Positions 335 to 59,531 of a stretch of 64,000 bases of DNA are shown piece after piece. How positions within the stretch are numbered: the first letter of the stretch is position 1; each line of letters begins with the position of its first letter. Both the position numbers and the translations under genes were made by a program. The notes beneath the pieces are model-generated. The model saw only the letters and a program-made list of their open reading frames with translations, had not been told where the DNA came from and did not search any database. Origin of the DNA: Eledone cirrhosa (taxonomy: Eukaryota); assembly GCA_964016885.1 (NCBI GenBank), contig OZ024747.1, positions 92,256,001 to 92,320,000 on the forward strand, given 5' to 3'.

Positions 335-710
335 TTTCTTTGCGGTTATTTATGTGGCCCTGAGAAAAGGTTTCAGGCTCTGAAAATTTCTCTACATCAT
401 TGTATTCAGTAATTAAATCCTCAGTATGAAGTAAACTTGTCTTCGCCTGTGCAGATATCGTCTGTTCACGGGAGATTTCCAGCAACTTCTTCTGTAATTG
501 ATCATTTTTTACTATAGGACCACTTCCGCTTTGAATTTTATTTCGGAGACGTTTTGTCTCAAATGAGATATCACGAAACGTTACCTTCTGAGCACGCTCA
601 ACATTTCTCAATTCGCGACTGAGCCGATTATCGGCTCGAACGTTATTTCTCAAAATGGCATCATCGTATTCCGATCTAGATACTGAACCGTACTTTTTGC
701 GGGACGTCAT
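335..710 (-). CDS. First coding exon of a host gene (125 aa, N-terminal coiled-coil-like segment); gene continues beyond the left edge
   Basis: ATG at 710 gives MTSRKKYGSVSRSEYDDAILRNNVRADNRLSRELRNVERAQKVTFRDISFETKRLRNKIQ...NNRKE with no stop. Consensus donor GTAAGT at 334..329 (phase 1). Acceptor tttatttcag ends at 842, so the exon is 841..335 with a 5' UTR. The frame runs off the window, so the ORF track omits it. Confidence 0.7.
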
Positions 711-1936: not shown

Positions 1937-3508
<1,572 letters not shown>

Positions 3509-10139: not shown

Positions 10140-10180
<41 letters not shown>

Positions 10181-10183
<3 letters not shown>

Positions 10184-10381
10184 AAAAAGTATGACCCCGA
10201 CGGCAGAGCTCAAGCCGTTTCGACGGCTATTTCTGGACAAATTGAGTCCAGAAATAGCCGTCGAAACGGCTTGAGCTCTGCCGTCGGGGTCATACTTTTT
10301 CCTATTTCCCACTCTACTACCCTAAGTATTGAGTACTCTGGTGCGTTATGGTCCATCTGGTTCCTTACCACAATTCCTTTG

Positions 10382-10821: not shown

Positions 10822-11296
10822 TATATATATATACCAAACACTTCAGTTGAACTGGGTAACAAGTAAACATGTTGACGATTACCACGATATTATATCAAAT
10901 ATTAATTCTCTCACCACAGGGGGTCCTTTTATGGTCATCTTTCTTATACTTAGCCCGCGGCGTCTCTTGGCTAGATTATAATCAATGTAAGCTTCAAGTT
11001 CCAAACCTAGTTTTCCTTTATGGTTTATTATAATATACACGTTTATAAATTACCTGCACGCTTTCTTTTGCCCTTGATTGTTTCAATGGACTCTTATAAA
11101 GAATTGGTTCGACTACCAAAGAATTGCCTCCTATGCTAATTAAATATATTCCTTTGTTGCGATACCTAAAAGAATCTTTTTCATGACTTTAAATAAATGT
11201 TTTTATGCTACTTGTATATTATTCAAAGTATGTCCACCAAGTTTACTATTAGTGTTATCTCATGGATATCAAATCAATATATCGAACTTTTGTTAG

Positions 11297-11518
11297 TCAT
11301 TTGCATTGCTTGAACGAGAAATGCAGCCTCTAAAACGAGAATTGGAGCCTCTAAAACGAAAATTGGAGCCACTAAAACGAGAAATGGAGCCTCTAAAACG
11401 AAAATTGGAACCTCTCAAACGAGAAAGGGAGCCTCTAAAACGAGAAAGGGAGCCTCTAAAACGAGAATTAGAGCCGCTCAAACGAGAAATGTATGATTTA
11501 TATACTGGCATAAAATAA
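11297..11518 (+). CDS. Candidate terminal exon encoding KR-separated repeated pentapeptides
   Basis: Acceptor ttttgttag, then SFALLEREMQPLKRELEPLKRKLEPLKREMEPLKRKLEPLKREREPLKREREPLKRELEPLKREMYDLYTGIK*. The 21-nt units show several synonymous differences (CCT/CCA/CCG, CTA/CTC, GAG/GAA, TTG/TTA). AATAAA at 11514 and 11871. Confidence 0.55.
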   Translation, partial: SFALLEREMQPLKRELEPLKRKLEPLKREMEPLKRKLEPLKREREPLKREREPLKRELEPLKREMYDLYTGIK

Positions 11519-12167
11519 ATAGTTTGTTTTTCTCTACAATTGCTATTTGCTGTTAAAGGAATGCTAAGACGAGATGTTCATGTCTTCAGGGTGTAACAGC
11601 AAGTTCCCTTTTCTCAGAATATAATGCAACACGAGCTAGCACTGTTTAATAATATAACAATTCCAAAGAAAATAATATTAGATTGAAATTTAATGGAAAT
11701 GAAATATGAAACTCTTATGGTGTGCAACATTTTATAGAAAGTCATTCCATATGTAATTTATTCAAATAATAATTATTATAAACATTGTTTCTTAAAGTAA
11801 TTTGGCCGCAGCAAATCAAAGAATTATGTAACGCTAATTACGAATCTAGAATTATTCAGTATCAAAATATAATAAAATCCAGAAATATTATCCTTCAATT
11901 TCAGAGTCCATCAAATATTTCTGTTTCTGTTTAAATAGCAATTTTTAAATGGAATCCTAATAGTTATATAAATATGTTGGCAGTGTTCCTATTAATAGAA
12001 TTTCATCTCAACTTTCAAATAGAATTCAAACTTTGCTTACGAAATACGTAATTAAATATGTGGATAAATATAATATGGTTATACAAGTCCTAATTTTTGT
12101 CTGCAAAACGATTTACGAAAGGATTCAATGTAATTTGAATAAAAATATTCACAGAGATAATATATAC

Positions 12168-12402: not shown

Positions 12403-12875
12403 ACACGCGCAACGCCGTACCCAACACCTAGGGGTGGTAAAACCCTCGGCCCCTAGACGCGAAGATGCAAAAGTTCAGAGTCATCAGCTTTAACGTTGAA
12501 GGACTGACAGCAACAAAAATGGAATTACTCTACAACCTAGACGCTGATATAGTATGCCTTCAAGAGACACACAAGGAATTGGTGCCGCCAAGAATACCAG
12601 GCATGCATCTAATTATTTCTCACCCGAGCCCAGTCCATGGAAGTGCAATATACGCACGTAACAAATCTGCTATCCAAAATAGCAGAGACCTCTCCGATGG
12701 AGGGCTGGAGATCCTGCAAGTAGACACAGAACACCTAAACATTGTGTCGGTATATAAACCTCCACCAACCCCCTTCATATAGCCACTGTATCACCAGCTT
12801 GGTAACAAGGCATGCCTTGTTGTTGGAGACTTTAATAGCCACAATACCACCTGGGTTTACAACCACACTAATAAT

Positions 12876-13061
12876 TGTTTCTACTTTTGGCACAAGGCCA
12901 GCAAATACCCAGTACATTACTGGTACTTTATTTTATCGACCCCGTAAGGATGAAAGGCAAAGTTAACCTCAGCGGGATTTGAACTCAGAATGGCAAGGGC
13001 CGTAATTCTTTGCTGCAAAGCATGGCGTCCGACCCTCTACCGATACTGCCATCCACCGCCC
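12876..13061 (-). mobile_element. tRNA-derived SINE inserted in the LINE endonuclease region
   Basis: TSD taataat. Removing it restores TWVYNHTNNDGEAVEEWA. Same family as 33904..34093. Confidence 0.85.
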
Positions 13062-15587
13062 TAATAATGACGGGGAAGCAGTGGAGGAATGGGCCATTAC
13101 CCGCGACCTCACAATCATGCACGATGCAAAAGACAATGCATCCTTCCAAAGCGCCCGCTAGAGGAGAGGATATAACCCCGACCTAGCTTTCGTATCATCT
13201 AGACACTACCAGAATTTTGACAAATTAATTGGTGACCCAATACCCAAAACCCAAGTCCCAACACCGACCGATGGTCATCGAAATGAAACCTGTTATCAGA
13301 CAACGAGAGACGGCGCCTAAAGCCAGGTTTAACTTCCGTAAGGCTGGGATCCCCAACATCCGTCCAAACCCACTGCAGTATGATGACTTCCAAACACTGG
13401 TGTGGGAGGCCGCAAAGAAAAATATCCCAAGAGGCTGCAGGAAGTCTTACATCCCAGGACTCAATGAGCAAAACAAAGAAATGTACCAGGAGTACGTCCA
13501 GGTGTATAATTACGACCCATTTGCCATAAACACCATAGAGCTCGGAGAGATCCTGACAGCCTCGATCAACAATGAAAAGAAAGAGCGCTGGCAAGAAGTC
13601 ATAACCAACATCGATATGACTCATAACAGCAAAAACGCTTAGGCAACCATAAAAAAATTAAGCTCTGAAAAGAAACCTCAACCAAGAATAGCTGCCGTTA
13701 CGAACGAAGTGGCACACCAACTGCTACTCAACGGTAAGCCCAAGAATAGAGAAAAGGAATATCTAAGGGAAATGAAACAGGACATGAACCGTGCCATGCA
13801 CAACTCTGACGAAAACTTTGAACCATTTAACATGGAAGAGCTGCATGCAGCTATGAAACACCTTAAACCCGGGAAGGCAGCCGGCCTGGATGGCATCACA
13901 GTGGAGGTGATACTGCACTTTGGAGAAATGGCGAAAACGTGGCTGCTGTCGCTCTTTAACAACTGTGCATCAGCCTGTCAAATACCAAGGACATGGTGAA
14001 GAGCTAGAGTGGTGGCTCTCTGGAAGCCTGGCAAAGACTTGGCATCTCCATAGAGCTACCGACCAATATCCTTACTGTGCACCCTTTACAAATTATACGA
14101 GCGCATGATCATGGCTCGCTTGTCCCTTACTGTAGAAGAACAACTATCTCCAGACCAGGCTGGCTTCCGACCCGGCCGATCATGCTGCGGTCAAGTACTG
14201 AACCTGACTCAATACATCGAGGATGGATTTGAGGCCAAACAAATTACCGGAGCAGTCTTTGTCGACCTCACAGCTGCCTATGACACCATTAACCACAGAG
14301 CACTTCTTTTAAAGGTGGCCCAAACAGTTCGGAACACCACTACAGTCCGCATAATTGAGTCACTGCTCATCAATCGGCGATTCTTTGTTGAGATGGATGG
14401 CAGGCGAAGTAGGTGGAGGGTCCAGAACAACGGACTCCCACAAGGCTCTGTGCTAGCCTCTATGGTGTTCAACATTTACACAGATGACCAGTCGCAGTTC
14501 CACAATATTCGTAGATTCATATATGCGGATGATATCTGCATCGCAACACAGTCAGGCTCCTTTGACACATTCGAGGAAAGACTATCAAATGCCCTGACAA
14601 CTCTCTCTGCATACTACAAAAAAATGGTACCTTAACGCTAATGCCAGCAAAACGCAGGTGTGTGCCTTCCCTCTTAACAACCACCAAGCAAACAGGAAAC
14701 TAAAAATCAGATTGGGCAACAATGAACTGGAAAACCACCCTCATCCAGTTTACCTCAGAGTTGCCCTTGATAGAACGCTCTCTTTCAAACAACACATAGA
14801 CAAACTTAAAAGTAAACTGGCAACTAGAAATAATCTCCTCAGCAAACTAACCAACACCAGCTGGGGTGCAGATCCCATAACACTGAAGCAAACAGCACTG
14901 GCACTCTGCTACTCCACCGCAGAATATTGTTCACCAGTATGGGCAAGGTCGTGCCATGCAAACAGAGTTGACCCAGAGTTGAACAAATCATGCCGGATGA
15001 TCACCGGAATATTAAAAGCAACTCCCCTTCCAGCCGTATACACTCTTGCCAGCATTCCACCGCCCCACATACGACGAGAGGTCAACGCAAAAACTGAACG
15101 GTACAAACAACACGATCCCAGGCATCCACTCTATGGCCACCAGGAAATAAGAAGACGATTAAAATCTCGAAAAAGCTTCTTAACCGTGGATAGCCTGGAG
15201 CATGCACAATCGGCGGCATACAGGTTGGAGAAGTGGAGGGAGAGTGACCGCCGCCCACCCAACGCGGCCTTACTAAGCCCAAATGAAAGCCTCTGCAATG
15301 GAACATCTCTTAGCAGAAAGAATTGGGTAACCCTAAACAGGGCCAGAGCCAGAACGGGCAAAACTGGAGACAACCTCCACAAGTGGGGATTGGCCACCTG
15401 CGCTGAGTGCCCTTGCGACGAGACCTCCCAGACCAAAGCCAACATCCTCCGTCGGTGCTCACTGGGACCCACATGCTCCGACCAAGACCTGATGGAAGCA
15501 AACGACGCTGCACTTCAATTGATACGGCACTGGCGCGACAAGATATGATATGATGATATATATTAATATATATATATATATATATTT

Positions 15588-20978: not shown

Positions 20979-21988
20979 CACAATCATTCAATTACCATAT
21001 TTCTAATGTAAGATATGTTTATGATTTTCACACGGATTTTGCCACTATCGTGGCACTCATATTCTCCTTATATGTATATAACTGCTTGTCTTCATTCATT
21101 GTATACGTTCCCTCATTGCAATTATTTAAAACACATCAATATCACATACATATATATTATCTAATATATTCTAATATTCTTTAAAACATTACTCAGTCCG
21201 ATGTGAAATTCAACGGAAAACTCCTATTTTTAATCAAAAGCAATATCATTATCTAGGTATGTTTATATTGACATATATAAACTTGTTATAGAATGTCTAG
21301 TTACCCACCTATCTTCTTTGATGTGCTTACACGTCACTGCATATGTCTGCTTGCAGCTCATGAATGTGTGTAACTATTTAAATTTGAAAACAAACAATAC
21401 ATTCACCCATATATAATTGCTTTCTCAGCTTCTTTTCCAAATAATTGCGTATGGAAAAGAGTCGAATTAAGTTATGGTCTGACATTTGGTCAGTAACACA
21501 CATAATTAAACCATCAATCTTACTTTGACTCTTTGTCACACAGAAAACTGTGAGAGACTTTTGTACTGATGAGAGACTTTCGTTGCAAGCATTAATCAAG
21601 TAAAACAGTTTACTCACTGCTCAAACGTAAGATATTTTAGATTTATTTACTAAATACTTTCATTATTTTTCGGAGGTTTTTTTGTTGTTTTTTTTAGATT
21701 TATACAACACCTGGTATAACAAAGAATGTAGAATGGTTATTATCATCAGATTTTAGACACTCTTGTAACAAAAAATATCATTACCAACAGCAATACCAGC
21801 GGCAGTGCCATCTACCGGCTACAAATTATACTTACATCAGCCTCGATGACAGACGCACTACCTATTCTATTACATCATTATTGTCTTTTTTTTCAACAGT
21901 TGCAGCCTCATATTTCTCCATCATAGTTTCGACTATACTTTTGGAATAATGTTGCTGACGAACTATCTTTCCACTTATATATTTCCAG

Positions 21989-22188
21989 ATGATTTTAAGA
22001 CTGGCGAAGAAACTCAGGATGTCTCAGACCGGGATCAGAAAGCTGCAATCATCTTGTCACTTTCTGACTTGCTGGTCACCCGAGACGGCAGGGGTCACTT
22101 TCTGCAATCAACTAACGTTGAAGAAAATGTTCAGAATCTGAATGCAGAAAGCATACGAGGGACTTGTCTGGACCCAGTGACGGCCTGA
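21989..22188 (+). CDS. Possible terminal exon of an unknown gene
   Basis: ctgac branch-like motif, pyrimidine tract and atttccag acceptor, then the open frame DFKTGEETQDVSDRDQKAAIILSLSDLLVTRDGRGHF...DPVTA*. Non-repetitive sequence, no recognisable domain. Confidence 0.3.
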
Positions 22189-22532
22189 GTTTCATATTCA
22201 TGAATGAGAACTGTATAAATTTCTCTTTTAGAGAGATTGAAGGTCCAAATATTCATCATTTTATTGAGGGAGTTCGAGATAAGGCCTCTACAAGCTCAGC
22301 ATATTCGTGAATGACAACGGTATTAATTTCTCGTTTAGAGAGCTTGGGGGTCCAAATATTCATTATTTTATTGAGTGGGTTTCAGACAAATCCTCTACAA
22401 ACTCATCATGAATAATCCTCAAGTGTTACTACAGATATGATCTCTATGTAAATTAATTCAAATGTAAATTAATTAAACATTAATTCGTGAGTAATATCAA
22501 TATTTAACCAGAGCGAGTTGCTTCTATTTCAT

Positions 22533-31720: not shown

Positions 31721-33084
31721 TCACTCTATTACGTGTTCCAGCCGACAAGATGAAGCCAGGCTGGAACACGACCATTTTCTTAATAGTTATTTCTGAAAGA
31801 GTCTGCTGTGTTGCAAATTTCCAAAAATTCAACAGAACCATCATTCATTGAATTAAGTGTTCCTTGTCGTGTCCTTTTCCCTTCTCTATTAACTCTTGCA
31901 TATACGTGGCTTTATTGCCTTGCTTGGACGGAATAAGAAAAAAAAACATAACTTAAACCGCCATTGTCATAGCTTTCATTTTAAAAATCATTAGTTATAT
32001 ATATATCAGAACTTGACTTAGTCGCTACGATGCCTCCTTTGGTTGCATAAATATCAGTTTTACTTAACAGCTTGGATTACATATGATCGTGTGTGATGTT
32101 AGTAACAGATTTCAAGTGGCAGTAAATAGCTGAGCATACACTATCCGTTGGTCCATTATCCTAGACTTGCTCTACCTTCTCCGGGCGAGGTATTTCCCAC
32201 TATAAGTTTGTAAACAACATTAAAATAAAAACATAACGTTTAAAGTATTGTGAAAAAAAAATATTTTACGAGGTCAAAAGATCAAGTGAGTAATTGATGT
32301 TTTATGACTACAGACTGTGGGATATATTATTACCCAGGCATTACAAACTGTTTCTTTAATGAAAGAAAATATCAGCCGGTCAATAATTTCTAAGCAATAA
32401 TCCTTTGTAAAGAATAATTTCTAAGCAATAATCCTTTGTAAAGAATTCATCAAAAGTGAAAAGAGTGAAATATAATTCCAATTGGAGTAACTAAACAAAT
32501 ATATATCAAAATGGCAGCTCTTTTATATCAAAGACAACGATTCCGTAGTCAAATTCTACAAAATATTTGAGCAGACAATATATTGAGAGACTTTTCTTTT
32601 TTCAATACTACACCCATTCATTCCTGAGAAGGTCGTTGGGACAGAGCCCTCAAACACTACTTCCAGTGGGTCTTGTCAGAAGTAATCGTCTCCAACTGAT
32701 CCGGTTGGATCCCCAAGCGAGACCAGCCAACTAATGGATGTTAACCAAACCAATGTTTATGACCGCTAGAAAATTTATTTTAATTGATTTTCTCAGCCCA
32801 ATCCTTCTATACAAGAATTATAACTAGATAATTAACCCTTTAGTGTTTAAACCAGCTGTATCCTCCAGAATTCTCTCACCTCTTTCTGTTCAAACCGGAC
32901 ATAACTGGCCACTCATACTGATGTTAAGGTATTGTTCTCAAAATAAATAACATCAACATTTCATAGATTCGATATTATGTGAGATAATTATATGAAGTAA
33001 AGCCTTTACTGGGGAAATACAATAGTAAATATAGAGTAATGTAAATGCTAAAGAGTTAAACAGGTATATAATACATATTAAGCA

Positions 33085-33515
33085 TGACTTGGACGCTGCA
33101 GGCTTCCCTTCCCAGCTCGAGCCGGTGGGGCTGGATCGAGGGGACGGCAAAAGGCCAGATGGCATGACCATCTTCCCGTTCCGCGGTGGCAAACCCCTCG
33201 TCTGGGATGCCACTTGCACCGACACTTTCTGCAACCGCAACCTGGTGCAGTCTGCGACTGACCCAGGTTCTGCTGCACGTCGGGCTGAGGGGGCCAAACT
33301 CCTCAAATACCAGTCGCTCTCCGACATGTTTGCGGTCGTTCCCCTGGCAGTGGAAACTGCTGGTGTCCTCGGCCCCAAGGCTACCTCCTTACTCACCACC
33401 ATAGGCGCTGAGCTGGCCAGCCGTAGGTGTGAGCCCCGCGAGTTGGAGTGGCTTTTCCAGCGCGTCTCCCTTGCCGTCCTCCGGGGAAACTCCTTCTCCA
33501 TTCTGTCCGCCGCGT
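33085..33515 (+). mobile_element. CRE-clade non-LTR 3' fragment (restriction-like endonuclease)
   Basis: LEPVGLDRGDGKRPDGMTIFPFRGGKPLVWDATCTDT...KLLKY...VPLAVETAGVLG...LFQRVSLAVLRGN (PD..D REL motif). Confidence 0.85.
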
Positions 33516-33665
33516 ACGTACCATTACATTAGTTAAATACCATTCTTTCATCTCATAAATATAAAATATACCGTAAATGGTATAACTGAAGTCGTAGACT
33601 ATAAATACTTATTATATATAATACATAGAGCACTCTTTCCTTTACCCTTCCTACGCAAATACTTA

Positions 33666-35164: not shown

Positions 35165-36488
35165 ACTTACTTGTACTTGTACTTGTGTCGACATTCACTC
35201 TGGACGGGATTCAGGCGAAGGCGAAGACAGGTGGTAGGTACCCGATCAACGTGTCGGCAGCGAAGAATGCGGCGGAGACGGTCATTGTCGAAGACCTCCA
35301 GCCCTCGTTGATCGACTACCCTCATAGGCCATGTTTCACAGCCATAGTGGAGGATAGTGCGAACGACGGCCTGGTAGATTCGCCCCTTGGTCGCCGAGGT
35401 GATCTCTCTTCTGTCCTACAGACACCGCTGGAGGCGCCCAAAAGCGGATCTGGCAGCACCTATGCGACGTTTGACCTCGGCTGCGCCCTGTCCCGCTGGA
35501 ACCACTGTTGAGCCCAGGTCCACGCCCTCAAGGCGAGACCAGTGACGTCATGATTTTCGACTTGGCGGCATTGATTCGTAGACCAACAGCGGCGGCTGCA
35601 GTGTGCACCCTTTCGAGAGCACCCTGTACATCTGTCCCGTTAGCGCCCATCATCACGATGTCATCCGCGTAGGCCACTCCGTCACCCCGACTCCTCTCCC
35701 GACCTCTACGCCCGAGTAATCCCGGAGCGCTATGTTGATAGTGTAGTCAATGACGTAGTTAAAGAGAGTTGGCGATAGCGCACACCCCTGCCGAACACCT
35801 GTCCCAACATCGAACGACTCCGTTTCCCCACTATAGACCCTCACTCGAGCCCGAGTCGACCGGTTGTAGCCTTGTATGAGACGAAGCAGCTTCACTGGGA
35901 TGCCGTCCGCCTGCATTATACGCCATAGGGCTTCCCGATCTACCGAATCGAAGGCAGCTGCAAAGTCGATAAAGCAGAGGACAGTAGGTTGCTGATGTGC
36001 CCATCGTTGTCCCAGGACACGCCGGAGAATGAAGATTTGATCAACGCACCCCCTCACCGGACGGAAGCCGCCCTGAGAAGGACGGGTACGGACAACATGG
36101 ATGGCCTGGAACCTCTTCAGCAGAAGAATTGCGAAGGTTTTGGCAGCAACGTCAATTAAACTGATACCCCTGTAGTTGGAACACAGTTTCCTGTCGCCTT
36201 TTTTGAAGAAGGGTAGGAGAGTTGCCTCGCTCCAGTCACCAGGGAACTACTCCGTCGCCCACGCCGAGGAGAAGACTCGATGGAGCCAAGCTGCGAAGAC
36301 ATCAGGCTCGGCCTTGTAGACCTCAGCTGGAACGCCATCTTCGCCTGGCGCCTTGTTGTTCCGGAGATGTGCCAGGACACTACGTACCTCCTCAACCGTT
36401 GGAGGGACAGTGCTGCACCCGTATTCTTCTCCAGAAGGCTGCAGGTAGGTTGGCGTGGGTGGTGGCGGGTGGTTGAGCAGCTCGGACA
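35165..36488 (-). mobile_element. RTE-type LINE RT fragment inserted into a family H flank
   Basis: NNKAPGEDG, RGCVDQIF.LR, FIDFAAAFDSVDR, GVRQGCALSP.LF. (CAAGTA)n tail. Apparent TSD aatatatat. The flanks join to the reverse complement of 26290..26375. Confidence 0.85.
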
Positions 36489-36524
36489 AATATATATCAA
36501 ATATATAAGAACCCTAGATCAAAT

Positions 36525-56198: not shown

Positions 56199-59100
56199 CT
56201 AAATGTTAAAAAAGGTTCATTGATTATTCAATGAATATAGTTTTACAATAGATTAAAAGCACTCAACAAGGAAATTTTCTGCCAAGACTGGAATTGATGA
56301 AGGTATTAAAATGACAATGTTTAATAAAAAAACAAATAATGAAATAATGAAATATTGACGAAATAGGGGATGAATATTTACGACGGATAAAAACCCCAAC
56401 ATTTTGGCAAATCAACGCCTGTTTATATGCCTTAGCAACGACAGTGAAGCATTATCTTGGTGATAGCAGAGATATTTACAAGAACAGAACACCACCAAAA
56501 ATACCATCATATATAACTAAAGTAGAACAAAAGATTGCTGACCTACGAAAAAACATAGGATATGTGACAATGCTCCTTACATGCAAACAAACACAAAAAA
56601 ACTCACTCCTCACTAACAAAGAGTGACAAATAAAGTAAAGACGATGTTTGGTAACAGTAGAACCAGAACTCTCCAATATAAGCTGATCACCTTCAAACAA
56701 GAATTGAGAGCTGTTAGAGAAAAACGCCGATACCTGAAGAAGGTAGATGAGAGAAAAGTGATTAATAAAAGATTCAGACGAAACCAAACATCAGTCTATA
56801 GAGATATGAAGGGCAAAATAATAAATGTCACTGAGGCCCCATCCCAGAAATACATAGATTCCTTTTGGAGCAAAATATGGGGTGAAAAGAAGAATTTCAA
56901 CCAAGATGCAGTGTGGCTAAGAGAAATCCGAAAGAACTATTGCTCCTACACTACAACAAAAACATACGAAATAAGTGAGGGTACCCTTGAGACTGTGATA
57001 GGAAAACTCCAAGATAAGAAAACACCAGGAAGAGACATGATTGTCGGCTACTGGTACAAAAAACTGACATTCTATCGGAGGTATCTTACTGACCTCTATC
57101 AACAAGTTCTTAAGGGAGATACACTAATACCAGAATGGTTGACATTAGCACAAACATTACTGGTCCCCAAGAACAAAGACACCCACTTGGCAAAAAACTA
57201 CCGATCCATTGCATGCCAGAACCTGATGTATAAGATGTATACAGCCTGCCTGAACCTATTCCTCCAAGATCACTGAAAATAATAACATCATCACAGATGA
57301 ACAAGCAGCTGGAGAGAAAGGGTTTTGGGGATGTGCTGAACAACTCCTAATCAACAAAACTGCGATGTCGGATGTGCGACAACTTAGAAGGAATATGGCT
57401 ACAGTCTGGCTGGACTACAGGAAAGCTTTCGATTCTGTTCCCCACTCTTGGATGATAGGGGCCCTCCAACTTGCTAAAGTCCCAGACATTATTGTCAGAG
57501 CCATAGAGAGGTTGTCTTCTTATTGGGCTACTATCCTAAGGTTAAAGATAGAGAGGGAGGACTCTATTTTCACTGATAAAATAAAATATTGCAGGGGTAT
57601 ATTTCAGGGGGACAGTCTCTCTGTGATATTATTCATCTTGTCATTAAACCCCTTGTCCTCTCTGCTCAAGAAATGTGAGGAATACATCATTGGCTCACAG
57701 GAGGACAGATATACGAACCTAACCCATAATTTCTTTGTGGACGATCTGAAACTCTATGCCAAGAACATGGATGGCATGAAGAAAAATCTTGACCTGGTTA
57801 CCACGTTCTCAAAGGATATAGGAATAGAGTTTGGCCAAGATAAATGCTCATACATGATTGTAAAGTGGGGGGAAACAACAGCCCAATCTAGCAACATTGT
57901 CATCAATGGCCTAACTGTTTCACCGATATCTGATGAGGACTGCTACAGATACCTGGGGATAGATGAGAACATATCCTATAATGGCGTCTGTAATAAAGAA
58001 CGCGTAACCAGGGAATACTACACCCTATTAAGAAAGATCTGGTTATCGGAACTCTCTGCGCAAAACAAAACAGTGGCTCACAATGTGTTCGCTGTGCCTG
58101 TCCTAACACCAACGTTTGGAATACTTAATTGGACGATAGACGAAATCCGAGCAGTTGATGTTGGAACTCGAAAAATACTAAACACCACCGGAAACTTCCA
58201 CATCAACAGTGAAATAGACCGCCTTTACTTGAAACGTAAGCAGGGAGGCAGAGTCCTAACATCAGTCCAGACAACATTTGAATGTCGCATCATATCTCTC
58301 CGAATATATCTACGAACCTCGAAGCGTAGGAGCCCGTTTCTCGAGCAAGCCTATCTGCATGAAACAGATAATATCATGAGAGTTGGGAAGGAACTCCTCG
58401 AGAGATATTCCCTGTGTGATAATCAAAAATTCACACCCAGGGATGTCGCTCAGCAGTATCGCAGTGAATCCATGGATGAAAAACTGCATGCTTATCAGGA
58501 AAAAATCATGCATGGATATGTTGCCAGGAAGCTCCAGAGTGAGAGTAATACAGATAAGGAAAGTAGTCTATCTTGGACCAACAACCGTTATATTGGCTCC
58601 CACTTTGAAGGATACGCTTTTGCAATCCAAGAACAGGAGATTAACACGAAATACCTGATTCACAAAAGAGATAGGGATGCAGGCAAAACACCTAGATGTG
58701 ATAACAAGTGCAGACTCTGCAGAACTAACATCGAGGATATCACCCATGTCATCAGCAGCTGTCCAAAGATGTCATCGCAGTACTATCTACCTATGAGGCA
58801 TGATGTAGTGGCCAAAGCACTGTACAATGCAGTTCGTAAAAAAAGATAGCCTCGATAATAAACACATTAAAAGCTACAGCAATGTGGAAGACATCCATGT
58901 ACATAATATGAAAGATTACTGGTGGAATGTTCCAGTAAAAACCCCAATAAAATGAAGGCATAACAGACCAGATATTATGATATGGGACAGGGAGAAGAAA
59001 GCATGCACAGTAGTGGAAATTAGCTGCCCAGCAGATGCCAATATAATATCAAAGATTAGTGAAAAGGAGAATAGTTATGCAGAACTGATGAGAAATCTGC

Positions 59101-59531
59101 AGATACTCCACCCTCATTACACCTTCAGATTTATGCCTATGATTATTGTGGCACTGGGGTATGTTAGTAACTGCCTCAATACAAATCTTGAGAAGCTAGG
59201 CTTCACAGGAACAGAAAGAACACAACTAGTTAGGAAATTACAAGTACAATCCATTAATGGAACAGTAAAAATATGTAAAACATTCCAAAAATGTTGCATC
59301 TAATAACTGCATATACACATGTACAGATGCAAAGCATATACACATGCACACATACAACTCAAAACATACACATCCACACATACAATAACATCCATATCTA
59401 CACATGCATGCATACATACATATCTACCTAGTTGATGTTGTGTAAATTCCAATGAGAGAGTCTTGTGTCTATGTTAGAAACCGACTCTCTCTCTCTATTG
59501 GTAAAACTTTGTGAAATTATAAAACCAGAAG
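56198..59531 (+). mobile_element. 5'-truncated Dong/R4-clade non-LTR retrotransposon (RT + CCHC + REL), mutated
   Basis: WLDYRKAFDSVPHSW, GIFQGDSLS, FVDDLKLYA, YRYLG, CRLC...EDITHVISSC, RHDVVA, NRPDI, VEISCP. Stops and frameshifts present. The 3' UTR abuts (TACA)n. Confidence 0.9.

What the first reader, a model, noticed from the sequence alone, without database searches (positions are those of the whole stretch)
11297..11518. Candidate novel peptide precursor: pentapeptides separated by Lys-Arg
Seen: eight xx[EQ]PL-KR units (EMQPL, ELEPL, KLEPL, EMEPL, KLEPL, EREPL, EREPL, ELEPL), then EMYDLYTGIK*. KR is invariant, P/L/E codons vary synonymously, and there is an in-frame acceptor upstream and AATAAA downstream. 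Established: prohormone convertases cut after KR in multi-copy peptide precursors, and a proline every seventh residue disfavours a continuous coiled coil. Inference: last exon of a secreted precursor releasing non-amidated xxEPL peptides. I do not recognise the family and found no convincing signal-peptide exon.
Basis: partly seen in the sequence, partly recalled or inferred. Interest (0 to 1): 0.7.

Follow-up and report, generated by a model that had tools for sequence, protein, structure and literature searches.

The report
Octopus minisatellite resembling a peptide precursor
An octopus-type genome holds eight and a half head-to-tail copies of a 21-base unit that read as five-residue peptides split by enzyme-cutting signals; it is most likely an ordinary non-coding repeat, but a predicted secretion-signal exon 59 kb upstream leaves roughly a three-in-ten chance that it belongs to an undescribed peptide-hormone-like gene.

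Summary
In detail: a single-copy 21-bp array (11313-11491, 8.5 units, no indels) reads as eight xx[EQ]PL-KR units. The KR codons are identical as DNA in 8 of 8 units, so their invariance shows no selection. Four or five of 9 variants are synonymous (P 0.11-0.16 over open frames). The acceptor scores -2.9 on a rough model against +3.9 to +10.0 for four gene acceptors used as controls. AATAAA overlaps the stop codon. Unrelated satellites in this genome also read as PLKRE or KR-split units. No orthologue was found. New and in favour: 58.9 kb upstream lies the best signal-peptide-plus-donor candidate of 30 in 436 kb of unique DNA, on the same strand, phase-compatible, with CRE-like sites. The intron would span an antisense gene and far exceed two control neuropeptide introns (about 1 and 5 kb). 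Odds: non-coding minisatellite 0.5, secreted KR-cut precursor 0.3, uncut helical or nuclear repeat protein 0.18. The scan had no look-alike by place or sequence; it has noted similar orphan precursors in two other genomes.

The parts
11313..11491 (+). 21-bp tandem array, 8.5 copies, 85% matches, no indels; units differ pairwise at 0-5 of 21 bases; single-copy in the genome search
11297..11518 (+). 73-codon open frame plus stop: 7 residues, eight xx[EQ]PL-KR units, 10-residue tail; heptad a/d positions mostly Leu/Met; six LKRE (SUMO-consensus-like, motif recalled) sites. Its possible first exon lies outside the window: G000:C7:92208311-92208388 (L031:2311-2388, + strand), Met + predicted 22-residue signal peptide + 4 residues + phase-0 GT donor, with CRE-like sites about 215 bp before it; the link is inferred only
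   Evidence: upstream exon
11277..11296 (+). candidate phase-0 splice acceptor, weak (-2.9 bits on a rough model; 1139 of 5554 AG sites score as well or better)
11514..11519 (+). AATAAA overlapping the stop codon; further hexamers at 11871 and 12138; uninformative at 1.42 per kb
335..710 (-). first coding exon of a conserved 233-aa cephalopod gene (second exon left of the window at C7:92251359-92251685); it would lie inside the proposed 58.9-kb intron on the opposite strand

Best explanation
The feature is a single-copy 21-bp tandem array that is most likely a non-coding minisatellite whose one reading frame happens to spell heptads ending in Lys-Arg. It likely grew by replication slippage or unequal exchange of one 21-bp unit (the array begins and ends on the same 11-bp word); because every copy descends from one unit, whatever codons the unit held, including AAA-CGA, repeat every seven codons without any selection. 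Shown: the array, its uniqueness, the DNA identity of the KR codons, the weak acceptor, look-alike readings in unrelated satellites. Inferred: absence of translation and the slippage origin.
For: KR codons are one type in 8 of 8 units, against 7 types in 9 sites of the genome's FMRFamide exon. Synonymous excess is marginal: 4-5 of 9; P 0.02-0.04 for 5 in this frame, 0.11-0.16 for the best open frame; 2 of the 4 other in-register arrays reach P about 0.05 in some frame. Acceptor -2.9 against +4.9 (neighbour gene), +3.9 (NPF-type exon), +6.9 and +10.0 (FMRFamide exons). An unrelated 714-copy, 15-kb 21-bp satellite (unit identity 11 of 21, matched by 33% of shuffles) spells PLKRE 85 times, 25 followed by a stop; seven more loci examined from the protein search are all 21- or 42-bp arrays reading as heptads. 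KR-per-unit frames occur in 2 control satellites in 600 kb. No orthologue among 7998 and 2273 word-sharing candidates, although the neighbour gene finds octopod orthologues in the same database; the HMMER hits richest in the motif are unrelated heptad repeats.
Against: No stop or indel in 8.5 units that differ by up to 5 of 21 bases; all three variants inside PLKR are silent (P about 0.01, chosen after the fact) and 0 of 9 variants are silent in the other open + frame. Flanking heptads keep hydrophobic a/d positions (seen directly, post hoc). The best signal-peptide-plus-donor candidate of 30 lies upstream on the same strand and in phase with no other recognisable partner exon (0 Pfam hits in 148 + strand frames). 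It is the only period-21 array among 63 arrays in 1,104 kb, so such arrays are not everywhere.
Confidence: 0.5

Rival explanations
1. Last exon of a two-exon, about 99-residue secreted precursor. The exon at C7:92208311-92208388 would supply a 22-residue signal peptide and splice in phase 0 to 11297; prohormone convertase and carboxypeptidase E (established pathway, recalled) would release one 16-residue N-terminal peptide, seven non-amidated xxEPL pentapeptides and a 10-residue tyrosine-bearing tail. The repeat would be a young expansion raising peptide dose.
For: Candidate scores 5.32, top of 30 in 435,732 unique bases; in 4 Mb of Markov-simulated DNA 0 candidates reach both its score and donor, 2 reach score 5 with donor 3, and 0 of 176 have TGACGTCA within 400 bp. 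TGACGTCA occurs 7 times in unique DNA of the 504-kb region; the patch ranks 78-161 of 5889 windows for CpG. The exon is single-copy. Same strand, order and phase as the array. Mild synonymous bias. Only KR-dense frame in 504 kb. A higher-scoring candidate (5.7) near the NPF gene has a textbook acceptor, suggesting such scores mark real exons.
Against: The scoring rule was written after the lead was seen and missed the FMRFamide signal exon at cut-off 4.2. Intron would be 58,908 bp and contain an antisense gene; control introns are about 1.1 kb (NPF) and 4.7 kb (FMRFamide). 66 phase-0 frames of 30+ codons with an equal or better acceptor compete in the interval, ours included. Neither control gene has the CRE within 400 bp of its ATG. 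The candidate frame stays open 50 codons past the donor with a second hydrophobic stretch (chance 0.07, though the FMRFamide exon also reads on). Peptides are acidic, lack aromatic residues and look like spacers; EPL-KR appears as a spacer in a nemertean leucokinin precursor. No orthologue.
Confidence: 0.3
2. Coding but not cut into peptides: a heptad-repeat helical segment (Leu/Met at a and d, Lys at e, Glu at g), either as the tail of a secreted or intracellular protein or as a 65-codon frame from the Met at 11321, possibly acting as a coiled coil or as an array of LKRE SUMO-acceptor sites.
For: Pfam gives 51 hits at E up to 0.1; the 25 shown are mostly coiled-coil or leucine-zipper families. 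AlphaFold2 models one helix, residues 2-70, mean pLDDT 86.4. Six LKRE motifs. Same synonymous bias as above.
Against: All 25 Pfam scores shown are below curated cut-offs; single-sequence models of repeats tend to be helical regardless (pTM 0.35); Pro in every heptad and Arg at position a in two units; no recognisable upstream exon; weak acceptor; no orthologue.
Confidence: 0.18

Closest known systems
Multi-copy proneuropeptides of molluscs (definition in PMC6425005; parts 1 and 3 of 8 of the text and passages read)
   Same: Short related peptides between dibasic sites, no folded domain, possible N-terminal signal peptide.
   Different: Signal peptide not shown to be joined; near-perfect DNA repeat with no codon turnover at KR; no amidation Gly; no family match: PLKRE and QPLKR 0 hits, EPLKR one unrelated hit per file in three supplement files, two of which were cut when stored.
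Pedal peptide/orcokinin-type precursors, e.g. sea urchin PPLNP1/2 (sequences seen in supplements of PMC6425005; passages of PMC4772807)
   Same: Multi-copy, dibasic-bounded peptides without amidation Gly that contain an [LM]EPL core.
   Different: Those peptides are about 13-15 residues with Phe/Tyr ends and Gly-rich flanks; ours would be 5 residues with no aromatic residue. Resemblance of four letters only.
Achatin/Ocp-type tetrapeptide precursors (recalled; achatin is named as a molluscan family in PMC6425005)
   Same: Precedent, from memory, for very short non-amidated peptides cut at KR in molluscs including octopus.
   Different: No sequence likeness; achatin-type peptides carry an aromatic residue at position 2.
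21-bp minisatellites of this genome that read as heptads (C2:50095536-50110517 and the loci)
   Same: Period 21, open frames spelling xxPLxxE-type heptads, in one case PLKRE.
   Different: Unrelated DNA unit (11 of 21); those arrays are mostly longer, more homogeneous (87-98% matches) and several carry stops or frameshifts; ours is short, more diverged and unbroken.

Membership tests
multi-copy proneuropeptide | [quoted passage not shown] | tested here: met
   eight KR sites in the frame, two of them KRK
multi-copy proneuropeptide | N-terminal signal peptide in the same transcript | tested here: inconclusive
   strong phase-compatible candidate 58.9 kb upstream by a home-made score; junction unshown; SignalP not available
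multi-copy proneuropeptide | no known folded domain | tested here: met
   all 25 Pfam hits shown (of 51) are below cut-off
multi-copy proneuropeptide | spliced transcript and processed peptides in neural or glandular tissue | not testable with these tools
   no RNA or peptidome of this organism could be laid on the locus
multi-copy proneuropeptide | peptide conserved across related species or under purifying selection | tested here: inconclusive
   no orthologue; synonymous excess marginal
pedal peptide/orcokinin type | 13-15-residue peptides with aromatic ends around an EPL/DPL-like core | tested here: not met
   5-residue units without aromatic residues against sequences seen
achatin type | Gly-aromatic-x-Asp tetrapeptides (recalled) | tested here: not met
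   no such unit in the frame
coiled coil / leucine zipper | hydrophobic a/d heptad over several turns | tested here: met
   Leu at d in 8 of 8 units, Leu/Met at a in 6 of 8
coiled coil / leucine zipper | continuous helix that oligomerises | tested here: inconclusive
   single-sequence model is one helix, pTM 0.35; Pro in every heptad; oligomer not tested
minisatellite | head-to-tail array of a 10-60-bp unit | tested here: met
   period 21, 8.5 copies
minisatellite | non-coding, neutrally changing, variable copy number | tested here: inconclusive
   neutral change not rejected after frame correction; allele lengths could not be read

The most novel reading that the evidence does not exclude
An octopod-specific two-exon neuropeptide or gland-peptide gene, with a CRE-bearing promoter and a 59-kb intron that spans an antisense gene, releases a new family of acidic, non-amidated xxEPL pentapeptides whose copy number was raised by a recent minisatellite expansion: a precursor caught in the act of multiplying its peptides.
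Probability: 0.25. Interest if true: 0.68.

Novelty: new member of a known kind. Interest (0 to 1): 0.35.

Why it matters
If non-coding, it is an ordinary repeat and a useful warning: in this genome satellites with periods divisible by three readily spell KR-split 'peptides', so such hits need a splice junction before being called precursors. If the upstream exon is joined, it would be a lineage-specific cephalopod peptide precursor of the sort that homology-based surveys say they may miss (PMC6425005, passage read), and a clean case of a young repeat expansion creating a multi-copy precursor. One RT-PCR or long-read look-up decides it.

Tried and rejected
RNA evidence: no RNA holder listed (three contig runs of one sample); laying them on 10850-12100 gave no record over the array (a filter drops records, so nothing follows) and on the upstream exon one identical contig per run with no joint. 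Neither bears on expression. ESM Atlas could not read new sequences. Paralogue idea: the C2 15-kb array is not a gene relative (stops, frame switches, unrelated unit). GPCR-fragment idea for the upstream frame (two hydrophobic stretches): no 7TM family among Pfam hits to E 10, no PDB hit, no paralogue; not supported. Other exon partners: 0 of 148 + strand frames upstream (of 157 listed) and 1 of 149 further frames (sub-threshold DUF7069) hit Pfam. A 67-bp exon-like piece at 10920-10986 ends in phase 1 and cannot join the KR frame at 11297. First signal-exon scan used too strict a donor cut-off and missed the lead; rerun. Pfam FARP search rang nowhere; a codon pattern found the FMRFamide exon. 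CRE as an octopus neuropeptide hallmark: not confirmed, 0 of 2 control genes have it within 400 bp of the ATG, and both have an acceptor just before the ATG. Literature: a search with ELEPL/EREPL was swamped by ordinary words; LEPLKR, EPLKRE, MQPLKR, MEPLKR gave 0 occurrences among the 18 of 19 papers listed. Supplements of PMC12607849 and PMC9712504 held no hits but little text (one file unreadable); PMC8557429 supplement had 9 EPLKR and 4 PLKRE hits, of which only the first two of each were shown, all unrelated. The cut parts of PMC6425005 files 2 and 3 may hold cephalopod secretomes that I could not see. No complex prediction was run, since a heptad repeat would not be decided by it.

Full report
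Observation. It coincides with a 21-bp tandem array, 11313-11491, 8.5 copies, 85% matches, no indels. The array and its upstream flank each match only themselves in the genome search. Two other frames are also open across the array. The genome is octopod-like: the neighbouring minus-strand gene matches Octopus bimaculoides LOC106877715 at 77% and an Argonauta protein at 67%, with coding exons at window 710-335 and C7:92251685-92251359.

Is it more than chance? The eight units carry 9 distinct variants. Four are silent against the consensus, five if the TTG-to-TTA change is read on its own background; the simulation gives P 0.02-0.04 for five in this frame and 0.11-0.16 for the best of the open frames. 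All three variants inside PLKR are silent (P about 0.01, but picked afterwards); amino-acid invariance of KR alone has P about 0.10. The KR codons are the same six bases in 8 of 8 units, whereas the genome's FMRFamide exon uses 7 codon pairs at 9 sites. KR invariance therefore reflects common descent of the units rather than selection. Among 63 minisatellites in 1,104 kb, 23 have a period divisible by three; 18 failed my in-register test and were dropped, and 2 of the 4 remaining others reach P about 0.05 for silent changes in some frame. AATAAA overlaps the stop codon and occurs 1.42 times per kb. On a rough acceptor model built from recalled frequencies the site at 11296 scores -2.9, matched or beaten by 1139 of 5554 AG sites, against +4.9, +3.9, +6.9 and +10.0 for four acceptors of the neighbour, NPF-type and FMRFamide genes, themselves placed by homology and not by RNA.

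Look-alikes. Searching the genome with the peptide gave 153 matches, most in a 15-kb, 714-copy 21-bp satellite on C2. Its unit is unrelated as DNA (11 of 21; 33% of shuffles do as well) yet spells PLKRE 85 times, 25 times before a stop. The seven other loci examined are 21- or 42-bp arrays reading as heptads. In 600 kb of control DNA two satellites (24-bp on C8, 48-bp on C13) give KR-dense open frames. Outside the genome, no hit passed among 2273 candidates of 40-128 aa or 7998 of 129-2000 aa (the second is weak by the tool's own note). HMMER over 1.84 billion representatives gave 389 hits; the best 150 were scanned for the motif and the richest ones, printed, are unrelated heptad repeats. Pfam gives only sub-threshold, mostly coiled-coil, hits among the 25 of 51 shown. 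AlphaFold2 on the single sequence gives one helix (pLDDT 86.4, pTM 0.35), which does not support the claim that the prolines exclude a helix, but such models are unreliable for repeats.

The upstream exon. Listing + strand frames in unique DNA upstream revealed at C7:92208311-92208388 a Met, a basic residue, a hydrophobic core, an Ile-Ser-Ala cleavage motif at residue 22, four more residues and a phase-0 GT donor. The array's acceptor is also phase 0, so the two could form a precursor of about 99 residues. With a simple score written after seeing the lead, it ranks first of 30 candidates in 435,732 unique bases; in 4 Mb of simulated DNA none reaches both its score and donor and none of 176 has TGACGTCA within 400 bp. 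It has that motif 215 bp upstream, one of 7 in the unique part of 504 kb, in a CpG-rich patch. It is single-copy and matches no family above cut-off. So it is probably a real first exon of some secreted protein (inference). Whether it joins this array is open. The intron would be 58,908 bp and enclose the antisense gene; 66 phase-0 frames of 30 or more codons with an equal or better acceptor lie in the interval, ours included; none of 148 frames tested has a Pfam domain, and ours is the only KR-dense one. Control genes cut both ways: signal-to-peptide introns are about 1.1 kb (NPF) and 4.7 kb (FMRFamide), neither has the CRE near its ATG, the score found NPF at 4.31 and missed FMRFamide at cut-off 4.2, and one further candidate scoring 5.7 with an excellent acceptor turned up in the 230 kb of control loci.

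Mechanism and odds. Most likely (0.5) the array is a non-coding minisatellite grown from one unit, so the KR period is a by-product. Second (0.3), it is the last exon of a secreted precursor cut by prohormone convertase at KR into acidic non-amidated pentapeptides, with larger aromatic-bearing peptides at the ends that may be the active products. Third (0.18), it codes for an uncut heptad helix or SUMO-site array. These odds are my judgement from base rates (many satellites, few orphan precursors) and the tests above, not a computed result.

Comparison with known families. It fits the general plan of a multi-copy proneuropeptide (PMC6425005: parts 1 and 3 of the text, passages and supplement search seen) only if the signal exon is joined. 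It is not a pedal peptide/orcokinin: sea urchin members share an [LM]EPL core but are 13-15 residues with aromatic ends (PMC4772807 passages). It is not achatin-like (recalled). EPL between two KR sites occurs as a spacer in a nemertean leucokinin precursor (PMC8557429 supplement passages). Searches for the motif in print found nothing relevant; two supplement files were cut, so cephalopod secretomes there may be unseen. PMC9712504 was seen as passages and supplement search, PMC12607849 as listing and supplement search only.

Verdict. Real repeat, unproven gene. Interest 0.35; a named junction makes the bolder reading testable in one experiment.

Noticed in passing
window 335-710 (-) and C7:92251359-92251685 (-): Two-coding-exon, 233-aa uncharacterised gene conserved in octopods (LOC106877715-like), no Pfam family for the first exon's frame.
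   Followed up: partly
L031:2070-2540 (C7:92208070-92208540): CpG-rich patch with two CRE-like sites and an E-box ahead of a signal-peptide-like exon; probably the start of an unannotated secreted-protein gene whatever its partner exon is.
   Followed up: yes
window 21530-22410 (+): Single-copy cluster of strong splice-like sites (acceptors at 21698 and 21989 score 6.9 and 4.5) with a protein-like acidic frame ending at 22185 and a 107-bp duplicate after it; possible exons of an unannotated + strand transcript and an alternative partner for the upstream exon.
   Followed up: partly
window 10920-10986 (+): 67-bp exon-like piece with good acceptor (4.8) and donor (2.7), open only from phase 0 to phase 1, single-copy.
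   Followed up: partly
window 10179-10305: Near-perfect 127-bp palindrome (96% to its own reverse complement), part of a dispersed repeat.
   Followed up: no
window 12441-15545 (+), 56351-59300 (+), about 2040-3270 (+), 35656-36513 (-): Broken non-LTR retrotransposon copies (endonuclease and reverse-transcriptase-like frames; Exo_endo_phos hit for 12441-12779, others judged by eye).
   Followed up: no
G000:C2:50095536-50110517 and C2:50532076-50533796: 21-bp macro-satellite of about 714 copies with a related 82-copy array 0.42 Mb away.
   Followed up: partly
G000:C4:74369959-74370263 (-) and about 5 kb upstream; G000:C8:21895626-21895724 (-): FMRFamide precursor gene (signal exon and peptide exon) and an NPY/NPF-type gene located as controls.
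   Followed up: partly
G000:C8:21880185 (-), L160: Strong signal-peptide exon candidate (score 5.7, textbook acceptor, phase-1 donor) 15.5 kb downstream of the NPF exon; partner exons not sought.
   Followed up: no
G000:C7:92469131-92469886: 63-bp x 12 array whose translation resembles, by eye, the mobile-element-like frame at window 33035-33529; 5 of 8 variants silent.
   Followed up: no
G000:C8:30067135 onward: 24-bp macro-satellite of more than 1369 copies that reads as Cys-bearing hexapeptides split by KR; a clear false mimic of a precursor.
   Followed up: partly
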